Below are positions 6,495 to 7,634 of a stretch of 64,000 nucleotides of DNA, piece after piece. The DNA is from Eledone cirrhosa (Eukaryota). Positions within the stretch are counted from its first letter, which is position 1. Each line of letters starts with the position of its first letter. Position numbers and translations under genes: made by a program. The stretch spans positions 300,204,001 through 300,268,000 of the forward strand of contig OZ024742.1 in assembly GCA_964016885.1 (NCBI GenBank), written 5' to 3'. Under the pieces are notes generated by a model. It had not been told where the DNA came from and ran no database searches. It was given only the letters and a program-made list of their open reading frames with translations.

Positions 6495-7634
6495 ATGGCT
6501 AGTTTCAATTCAGAAGTTGCAGATGTAAACAGAAATGTTGATGTTTCTGAGGATGACTGTCAGGATTTGACATTCTTTAATGAGGACCGCATGCTTTCAA
6601 TCGTCGAAGTTATAAGTGACATAGGCGAAATTCAGTCACTCAGTTCCCGTTTAAACATATCTCATGGTGTAATTGAAATATACAAACAAACACACAGCAA
6701 TTCACTTGATTTAGGATTTGATCTTCTCCGTTTGTGGCGAGAGATAAATAATTTGGGCGATTTTGAGAGTTGTCGACAGCTAGAAAAAGTTCTCAATGAG
6801 CTGGGCTACCGTTTCAAAAGTTCTCAATTAATATCATCTTTCATTAAATGGTGCACAACTAAGATGTGCTGCCGTAATCGTGTTCATAATCACGCAGACT
6901 CAACTTTAGGCCAGTTTAAAAGAAGAAACCAAGATTTAATGACCAATGTAGAGAGTAAATTCCAAAGCTGGTCCGATGACTTAGATATAGAACAAAATAG
7001 TACTAACATGGCTCTTTTTCTTCAACTTTATAATCCCGATTTTTCTACGAATGAACAACATTTGTGTAGTAATATGTTATTTAACATAAAGAATAGTTTG
7101 GATCATCATTTACCACGCGATGCTTTTTTATCAAATTTTCAATGTCCCGATGTGACACACTGCGTTACAAAACGATTTACAGTCAGATGGAAAGTTGTTA
7201 CTTCATTTTTACACGAGCGTCGATTGATGCTGATCAGCGAGCAGTTTCCTGATACTGACACAGTGTTTAAGTTAGGTATTTGTTTAAAAATACCGTTTGT
7301 TAAATTAAACTCGATTATTAATAAGAATAAACATTCCGTCCATTTAGCTGCTTATTATATGTTGTATGTGTGGAAACAAAATTGCTTAGGCTTGAAAGAA
7401 GAACGTCACGTTTTTAAACTAATTGCAGCTTTAAAAGATATAGAGAATGTGGAGCTTTCAGAAAAACTTTTGGAAGATTATGAATCGTGGAAACTATCCC
7501 CTATGCCTATTAAATTTGTTGAATTTCAAATTGCGAAAAGGAAAATATGTGATAAAGAACAAAACACCCACCCAAGCAACCTACCATCTCCGAATAAGAT
7601 TTCGTTGAAAGCACTCCCGCCTCCAGAAGTATGA
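6495..7634 (+). CDS. 379-aa protein with two death-domain-like repeats
   Basis: Uninterrupted 1140-bp ORF in AT-rich DNA, start context AAAATGG. aa ~27-105 (LSSRLNIS..IEIYK..GFDLLRLWRE..LEKVLNELG) and aa ~238-326 (LGICLKIP..LNSII..AAYYMLYVWKQ..LIAALKDIE..LSEKL) match the death-domain helix pattern. Confidence 0.75.
   Translation: MASFNSEVADVNRNVDVSEDDCQDLTFFNEDRMLSIVEVISDIGEIQSLSSRLNISHGVIEIYKQTHSNSLDLGFDLLRLWREINNLGDFESCRQLEKVLNELGYRFKSSQLISSFIKWCTTKMCCRNRVHNHADSTLGQFKRRNQDLMTNVESKFQSWSDDLDIEQNSTNMALFLQLYNPDFSTNEQHLCSNMLFNIKNSLDHHLPRDAFLSNFQCPDVTHCVTKRFTVRWKVVTSFLHERRLMLISEQFPDTDTVFKLGICLKIPFVKLNSIINKNKHSVHLAAYYMLYVWKQNCLGLKEERHVFKLIAALKDIENVELSEKLLEDYESWKLSPMPIKFVEFQIAKRKICDKEQNTHPSNLPSPNKISLKALPPPEV

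What the first reader, a model, noticed from the sequence alone, without database searches (positions are those of the whole stretch)
6495..7634. Intact intronless tandem death-domain protein in a sea of decayed transposons
Seen: the only long non-transposon ORF, with no lesions, while every neighbouring coding sequence is broken. There are two death-domain-like units (6573-6809, 7206-7472) joined by a ~130-aa linker with several Cys and His, and no recognisable kinase, TIR, NACHT, caspase or ankyrin module. Known: death domains mediate homotypic assembly in apoptosis and innate immunity and are expanded in molluscs. Inference: an uncharacterised DD-DD adaptor or decoy, possibly a lineage-specific immune family spread by retroposition or Helitron activity.
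Basis: partly seen in the sequence, partly recalled or inferred. Interest (0 to 1): 0.75.

Follow-up and report, generated by a model that had tools for sequence, protein, structure and literature searches.

The report
Cephalopod double death-domain adaptor gene
This intact gene, present here in three neighbouring copies and with full-length relatives in Octopus, Argonauta and cuttlefish, encodes a protein predicted to carry two death domains around a conserved helical middle part, so it likely works as a bridge between two partners in cell-death or immune signalling complexes, a layout not matched to any named adaptor.

Summary
The gene is real. 6495-7634 is an intact 379-aa frame. Two more intact copies (92%, 89%) lie 61 and 79 kb downstream. 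Same-length relatives occur in Octopus, Argonauta (52-61%) and cuttlefish-type sequences (31-33%). An AlphaFold model gives death domain 1 (residues 26-123, TNFR1 DD Z 11.4), a confidently folded helical middle domain (124-212), a flexible tether and death domain 2 (237-335, FADD DD Z 13.6). (1) The gene is not intronless: a public contig joins 7744 to 12899 at GT..AG, a 5,154-base intron 110 bases after the stop. (2) The 'linker' is a conserved domain; only C125, C126, H204, H205, D209 are deeply kept. (3) The copies are local DNA duplicates with gene-conversion patches, not retro- or Helitron copies. A canonical FADD exists elsewhere in the genome. Best reading: a coleoid two-handed death-domain adaptor; decoy is the main rival; partners, tissue and any immune role are untested.

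The parts
6237..7744 (+). Exon 1 (leader, whole coding sequence, first 110 bases of the 3' UTR); the 5' end is where the contig begins, not a mapped start
   Evidence: Run X1 contig 6237-7516 unbroken, 3 other letters; further contigs 7487-7608 and 7579-7744; homology between the three copies begins near 6236-6262
6237..6494 (+). Leader with six upstream ATGs, none in frame with the main ORF
6495..7634 (+). Coding sequence, 379 aa, single exon
6570..6863 (+). Death domain 1 (residues 26-123, six predicted helices)
   Evidence: pLDDT 74-91; TNFR1 DD Z 11.4, rmsd 2.3, 86 aligned; DR3 DD Z 11.1; profile match to domain 2, probability 84.6%
6864..7130 (+). Middle helical domain (residues 124-212, four predicted helices) continuous with death domain 1
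   Evidence: pLDDT mostly 75-92, one block 61; 19 of 89 positions invariant over 8 non-redundant rows
6867..6872 (+). Invariant C125-C126 pair (candidate metal or lipid site)
   Evidence: 13 of 13 rows
7104..7121 (+). H204-H205-L-P-x-D209 motif; copy 2 has Tyr for H204, copy 3 has Asn for D209
7119..7202 (+). Stretch where copy 3 is far more divergent than elsewhere (motif end plus tether)
   Evidence: 35 of 115 bases differ over 7091-7205 against 1 of 467 just upstream; pS 0.585, pN 0.331 over 28 codons
7131..7202 (+). Flexible tether (residues 213-236)
   Evidence: pLDDT under 50 for 213-235; 1 of 24 positions invariant
7203..7499 (+). Death domain 2 (residues 237-335)
   Evidence: FADD DD Z 14.7 and 13.6 in two models, PIDD DD 13.7 and 12.6; family profile hits FADD DD at E 7e-4; Argonauta relative passes the Pfam Death cut-off here
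7745..12898 (+). Intron in the 3' UTR, 5,154 bases, GT..AG with polypyrimidine tract
   Evidence: joint in one X1 contig, 166 letters on the shorter side; donor and acceptor sequence
12899..16610 (+). Exon 2, long 3' UTR made partly of old repeats; its continuity beyond 13379 and its end near 16610 are inferred
   Evidence: X1 contigs 12897-13379, 13631-13850, 14004-14355, 14392-15554, 15531-15907, 15909 onward (702 long); AATAAA at 16582

Best explanation
This is an intact, conserved coleoid gene whose protein is predicted to consist of death domain 1 fused to a helical middle domain, a flexible tether and death domain 2, and it likely works as a two-handed adaptor that binds one death-domain partner with each end and so links or tunes death-receptor, FADD or PIDD-type complexes. 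Shown: the frame, three copies, relatives across octopods and cuttlefish, a spliced contig, purifying selection, and no motif of its own for caspase, RHIM or TRAF binding. Predicted: the three folded units and their boundaries. Inferred: that both death domains bind partners (each keeps invariant charged residues), that it is cytosolic (no transmembrane stretch), that it cannot itself recruit a caspase, and that upstream ATGs plus a 3' UTR intron keep its level low. Not shown: any partner, tissue or immune role.
For: Both units match true death domains better than PYD, DED or CARD: domain 1 TNFR1 Z 11.4 and DR3 11.1 against AIM2 PYD 9.8 and MC159 DED 9.3; domain 2 FADD 13.6 against CARD 9.9. 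Among the frames through this genome's 12 Death and 3 DED matches, both profiles score best on death domains (domain 2: PIDD-like L033, E 2.6e-6 in that small set). Invariant polar residues over 8 non-redundant rows: S56 R82 E83 N86 D89 C93 in domain 1, H240 R242 R243 S281 K294 E302 in domain 2, so neither end looks idle. Architecture and length (369-380 aa) kept from octopods to cuttlefish-type sequences at 31-33% identity. dN/dS among the three copies 0.39-0.52, Fisher p 0.02, 0.01, 0.0003. Tether unstructured and unconserved, fitting two independently docking ends. The genome holds likely partners: a DED-DD FADD, a two-DED caspase-8-like locus and a PIDD-like death domain. No RHIM or RxDL in 9 of 9 sequences scanned, and no TRAF motif in the three copies here; highest 19-residue hydropathy 0.8-1.7 in 5 proteins.
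Against: No direct evidence for any partner or pathway. Structural similarity to FADD, PIDD, ankyrin and THOC1 death domains is within about 2 Z units at 14-20% identity, so the fold does not pick the pathway; domain 1's best profile hit in this genome is a frame that looks ankyrin-like (L032; identity recalled, not tested). Foldseek gave no match at E under 0.001. Conserved residues of domain 1 may pack against the middle domain instead of a partner (several death-domain alignments run on into residues 164-208). Anatomy alone cannot separate a bridge from a decoy.
Confidence: 0.5

Rival explanations
1. Decoy: the two death domains cap growing death-domain assemblies and, lacking a DED, CARD, TIR or kinase, stop signalling, as cFLIP-short, MC159, PEA-15 or POP/COP proteins do for other death folds (their action recalled).
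For: No effector module; domain 2 is closest to FADD's death domain while the real FADD is encoded separately; upstream ATGs and a 3' UTR intron fit a tightly dosed regulator.
Against: A third conserved folded domain (19 of 89 positions invariant) is more than a cap needs; low copy number and long conservation are unlike the young decoys of mammals (recalled).
Confidence: 0.25
2. A scaffold outside apoptosis and immunity, like the death domains of ankyrins, UNC5, THOC1 or NF-kB p105, for example in neural or nuclear complexes.
For: Ankyrin and THOC1 death domains score Z 11.5-12.3 for domain 2 and ankyrin-1 10.6 for domain 1; only three copies, no sign of a large immune-type expansion; a short basic cluster with invariant R349 near the C end.
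Against: FADD and PIDD rank first in every comparison of domain 2; none of the ZU5, UPA or ankyrin modules of those proteins is present.
Confidence: 0.2
3. A transposon- or virus-carried passenger or a decaying retrocopy with no host function.
For: The three copies are the only long non-repeat frames I saw in 164 kb; Helitron pieces lie 10-21 kb downstream of copy 1 and 3-4 kb upstream of copy 3; single coding exon.
Against: Full-length intact relatives across coleoids, dN/dS under 1, a spliced contig, shared intron sequence between copies, no viral structure match at E under 0.001.
Confidence: 0.03

Closest known systems
FADD (DED-DD adaptor; PDB 3EZQ, 3OQ9, 6ACI)
   Same: C-terminal death domain is the best structural and profile match of domain 2 (Z 13.6-14.7; E 7e-4); two death folds on one chain without a catalytic part.
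   Different: N-terminal unit is a death domain, not a DED (no RxDL, no Pfam DED); an 89-residue helical domain lies between; a separate DED-DD FADD exists in this genome.
PIDD1 / CRADD (PIDDosome; PDB 2OF5)
   Same: Domain 2 matches the PIDD death domain at Z 12.6-13.7 and its profile scores best on this genome's PIDD-like death domain.
   Different: No LRR, ZU5, UPA or CARD matched; two death domains.
TRADD and Drosophila Tube (bridging death-domain adaptors)
   Same: Non-catalytic death-domain proteins that link two partners (recalled); both domains match TRADD DD at Z 10.4-10.9. TRADD was not detected in lophotrochozoans (PMC11463336, passages read).
   Different: One death domain each; no TRADD-N match; no sequence relation found.
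SH3BP4 / MACC1 and multi-DD proteins of echinoderms, sponges and lancelets
   Same: More than one death domain in a chain; such proteins appear as weak hits (E 4e-6 to 8e-4).
   Different: Hits cover only domain 2; those proteins carry Ig, Roc or simple DD repeats; none has the middle domain. SH3BP4/MACC1 architecture recalled.
cFLIP-short, MC159, PEA-15 (death-fold-only decoys)
   Same: Death folds only, no effector; MC159 matches at Z 9.0-9.3.
   Different: DED subclass, directly adjacent repeats, no middle domain.
Database entries A0A0L8I7J0, A0AA36AI77/CAI9716626.1, GAB1597833.1, CAE1293109.1
   Same: These are its relatives, named only 'Death domain-containing protein' or hypothetical.
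   Different: No paper holds these accessions in the library searched.

Membership tests
Death domain (DD) subclass of the death-fold superfamily | Six-helix death fold in domain 2 | tested here: met
   Six helices 241-334, pLDDT 79-94; FADD DD Z 13.6, rmsd 2.4, 99 aligned
Death domain (DD) subclass of the death-fold superfamily | Six-helix death fold in domain 1, closer to DD than to DED, CARD or PYD | tested here: met
   TNFR1 DD Z 11.4, DR3 11.1 against best PYD 9.8 and DED 9.3; profile prefers DD frames over DED frames in this genome; margin is modest
Death domain (DD) subclass of the death-fold superfamily | Pfam PF00531 above cut-off | tested here: inconclusive
   Window protein: no hit; 2 of 7 and 7 of 12 members match at E up to 10; Argonauta passes the cut-off on domain 2 (28.7 against 22.6 bits)
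Death domain (DD) subclass of the death-fold superfamily | Homotypic binding to other death domains | not testable with these tools
   Needs binding assays; no complex prediction could be obtained
FADD | N-terminal DED with RxDL motif | tested here: not met
   No RxDL in 9 of 9 sequences; no Pfam DED hit; the genome-wide DED search lists three other places, not this locus
FADD | C-terminal FADD-like death domain | tested here: met
CRADD/RAIDD | N-terminal CARD | tested here: not met
   Domain 1 fits DD better than CARD; CARD rows align to domain 2 at Z 9.9 or less; no Pfam CARD hit
PIDD1 / ankyrin / UNC5 / SH3BP4 (ZU5-UPA-DD proteins) | ZU5 and UPA beta domains upstream of the DD | tested here: not met
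   Model is all-helical; no such Pfam hit; full-length relatives are 369-380 aa; 0 of 6,578 longer candidates scored (weak evidence)
MyD88 / IRAK / RIPK | TIR, kinase or RHIM module | tested here: not met
Zinc-binding domain in the middle part | Conserved Cys/His/Asp set in one spatial cluster | tested here: inconclusive
Retrocopy or Helitron-captured gene (for the three copies) | Dispersed copies lacking the intron, with poly-A tail or transposon ends | tested here: not met
   Three tandem same-strand copies; intron donor kept in copies 1 and 2; shared intron block; no A-run of 10 or more in 7635-8600

The most novel reading that the evidence does not exclude
The middle domain is a new metal-binding or ligand-sensing module (CC ... 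HHLPxD) that holds death domain 1 shut until triggered, making the protein a stand-alone cytosolic sensor-adaptor invented by coleoid cephalopods that fills the bridging job of the missing TRADD, with copies 2 and 3, each lacking one motif residue, acting as altered or dominant-negative versions.
Probability: 0.12. Interest if true: 0.75.

Novelty: new variant of a known kind. Interest (0 to 1): 0.42.

Why it matters
Death-domain adaptors set the wiring of cell death and innate immunity, and in molluscs that wiring differs from mammals (TRADD not detected; reports on PIDD and CRADD in cephalopods disagree: PMC11463336 and PMC9389742, passages read). A two-death-domain protein with its own middle domain, kept across octopods and cuttlefish and found in no other animal by these searches, is a concrete candidate for a cephalopod-specific link in that wiring. 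It is small, single-exon in its coding part and easy to test. The gain is moderate until a partner or a phenotype is shown: unnamed death-domain proteins are common in marine invertebrates.

Tried and rejected
No RNA holder listed by the run search; the kind of X1 is my inference. Splice acceptors at 6419 and 6484: no joint listed in X1 and one contig runs across both (lists of joints and loose ends were cut). Upstream block 2270-2650, shared with copy 3 and at first taken for a promoter or first exon: a dispersed repeat (72 matches, 789 candidates). Middle domain: never modelled alone; in whole-model searches only a phiKZ capsid chain covered 124-210 (Z 7.8, within the noise for helical bundles); Pfam DUF7832 (E 0.03-0.24) and Adeno_E4_ORF3 (E 0.002) are far below cut-off; Atlas first hits 0.80-0.81 for this part are leads only; no similarity to either death domain. 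Single-sequence and 7-sequence searches of the PDB found no death domain. Viral structures: nothing at E under 0.001. Rfam: 0 matches in 5500-17500. Positive selection in the copy-3 island: pN under pS, and at the differing residues the four outgroups match copy 1 at 6-8 and copy 3 at 4-5 positions, so old retained divergence fits better. Literature: searches gave no description of this family; the O. vulgaris mucus paper PMC11431876 (two passages) names only CRADD. The receptor-like score of domain 1 and adaptor-like score of domain 2 were not taken as evidence of roles, since ankyrin rows tie with them.

Full report
Observation. The frame 6495-7634 translates to 379 aa without a stop. It opens at 6474 after an in-frame stop, and a frame of this length is not expected by chance (about 3e-9 for the window). 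The other 73 frames of 120 aa or more read, by inspection, as Helitron or LINE pieces, their antisense frames or simple repeats. Pfam gives the window protein no Death hit, so the death-domain reading needed other tests.

Copies and relatives. The own genome (3.0 Gb) gives 3 matches among 9 scored candidates: this copy and two intact ones 61 and 79 kb downstream on the same strand, 92% and 89% identical. Searches with two distant relatives found the same three and one match at E 0.8 with stops. In protein collections 4 of 1,527 candidates scored: Octopus bimaculoides (61%), O. vulgaris (60%), Argonauta hians (52%) and an unnamed protein (62%), all 369-380 aa. A full profile scan of 1.84 billion representatives gave 12 hits at E up to 0.001; only 3 are family members (E up to 1e-10), among them an unnamed 375-aa protein at 33%; the other 9 match domain 2 only and are general multi-DD proteins. 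A further search (6 of 3,861 candidates) added a 378-aa protein whose cluster holds a Sepia pharaonis entry. No longer form scored (0 of 6,578, weak evidence). The three copies here form one clade (100/99, 12 rows, P0009 fragment left out). So the family spans octopods and cuttlefish; no member outside coleoids was found by these searches, and the animal groups of the unnamed rows are not known.

Structure. With 7 sequences AlphaFold folded only the two ends; with 13 it gave mean pLDDT 71.6 and a continuous confident unit from 26 to 212, a disordered tether 213-235, domain 2 at 237-335 and disordered tails. Domain 2 matches the FADD death domain (Z 14.7 and 13.6) and PIDD (13.7 and 12.6), then ankyrin and THOC1; the family profile also finds FADD first in the PDB (E 7e-4). 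Domain 1 matches TNFR1 (Z 11.4, rmsd 2.3, 86 aligned), DR3 (11.1) and ankyrin-1 (10.6), ahead of PYD and DED rows (9.8, 9.3). Foldseek alone gave nothing at E under 0.001. The two domains align in register (profile probability 84.6%). It is as conserved as the death domains (66% against 65% and 64% to O. bimaculoides; 28-31% against 34-39% to the distant rows). Of its Cys and His only C125, C126, H204, H205, with D209, are deeply kept; H131, H133 and C120 are not. Its fold is not assigned: it was not modelled alone.

Gene structure and expression. The run search listed 4 holders, none on record as RNA. Run X1 (87.8 million letters of contigs, against 1,394 million for X2) holds one contig over 6237-7516 that crosses both candidate acceptors (6419, 6484) unspliced, and a contig that joins 7744 to 12899 across 5,154 bases with GT..AG ends. 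The donor and the acceptor with its pyrimidine tract are in the sequence, and the first 216 bases around the acceptor matched only here among 40 scored candidates, so no joined DNA copy was seen in the assembly. A second contig with 11 differences over 7487-7608 equals the count for copy 3 (copy 2: 15), so copy 3 is likely transcribed too. The stop lies 110 bases before the junction; in zebrafish, termination 50 or more bases upstream of the last junction marks mRNAs for decay (PMC7310861, abstract and outline); whether molluscs follow this rule is not known to me. The leader has six out-of-frame ATGs. The AG at 6482-6483 is missing in copies 2 and 3, and relatives begin with their own Met, so the frame is not the last exon of a larger gene.

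How the copies arose. Homology covers about -260 to +1,260 around the ATG. Copies 1 and 2 keep the intron donor (copy 3 has GA for GT) and share an intron block at 96%, against 81-87% for the 38 other places scored for that repeat: duplication at the DNA level. No A-run follows the gene. Differences are patchy: copies 1 and 3 differ at 1 of 467 bases in the core but 35 of 115 just after it, where copies 1 and 2 differ at 1 of 115; identity runs are longer than in any of 10,000 shuffles for two of the three pairs. That fits gene conversion or unequal exchange. dN/dS is 0.50, 0.52 and 0.39, each under 1 by Fisher's test; conversion makes these values rough. Copy 1 keeps the whole middle motif; copy 2 lacks H204 and copy 3 lacks D209.

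How it likely works. The protein has no catalytic, DED, CARD, TIR or RHIM module and no membrane stretch. Both death domains keep invariant charged residues and are parted by a loose tether. Death domains assemble by binding each other (established knowledge), so the simplest reading is a two-handed adaptor that docks on one death-domain partner with each end (0.5). The genome has candidates: 12 Pfam Death matches among 21 candidates and 3 DED matches among 7, including a DED-DD FADD and a PIDD-like domain; these counts are lower bounds, as the three copies themselves are missed. A decoy that caps such assemblies (0.25) and a scaffold outside death signalling (0.2) remain open. No partner, tissue or immune role is shown.

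Comparison and novelty. It is a member of the death-domain class but not of FADD, CRADD, PIDD, MyD88, IRAK, RIPK or the ZU5-UPA-DD proteins. Databases name its relatives only automatically, and my searches found no paper on it (search listings). PMC11463336 (passages) found FADD and CRADD but no TRADD or PIDD in lophotrochozoans; PMC9389742 (passages and supplement rows; one supplement unreadable) reports Fadd and Pidd1 but no Cradd in bobtail squid, and 15 unnamed CARD or DED candidates; I saw 2 of its 3 PF00531 rows, both FADD. The PIDD-like domain found here (E 1e-9 to human PIDD) agrees with the second paper. Verdict: a real, previously undescribed coleoid variant of death-fold adaptors, interest 0.42.

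Noticed in passing
L035 1486-2046 minus (G000 C24): The canonical DED-DD FADD of this genome is also a single 186-aa open frame, without a coding intron.
   Followed up: partly
L033 1474-1779 minus (G000 C7): PIDD-like death-domain exon (E 1e-9 to human PIDD), although one survey reports no PIDD in lophotrochozoans (PMC11463336).
   Followed up: partly
L037, L038, L040 (G000 C2, 233.76-233.83 Mb) and L042: Three near-identical death-domain frames in tandem; the longest has a helical stretch upstream that looks CARD-like by eye, a possible CRADD-type cluster; not tested.
   Followed up: no
L003 about 2062-2175 (copy 3; window equivalent 7091-7205): Divergence island of 35 of 115 bases beside near-identical sequence, higher than the 11% of the leader; it removes the conserved Asp of the middle motif.
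   Followed up: yes
L003 2726: Copy 3 has GA in place of the GT intron donor, and neither copy 2 nor copy 3 has the acceptor and exon 2 nearby, so the three copies likely have different 3' UTRs.
   Followed up: partly
window 6260-6261, 7235, 7694, 13062: Runs differ from the assembly: GC for CG at 6260-6261 and a 2-base insertion after 7694 in both runs; a silent change at 7235 and one at 13062 in X1. Alleles or assembly errors.
   Followed up: no
window 1221-1381 and 1553-2210: Two long near-perfect inverted repeats (hairpin-type repeats) read directly in the sequence.
   Followed up: no
window 54710-61516: Two neighbouring LINE pieces with long frames (323 + 828 aa; 511 + 326 aa) that look young rather than decayed.
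   Followed up: no
L002 and L003, codons 10-22: Copies 2 and 3 carry a 13-residue near-repeat in the acidic N-terminal tail that copy 1 lacks.
   Followed up: no
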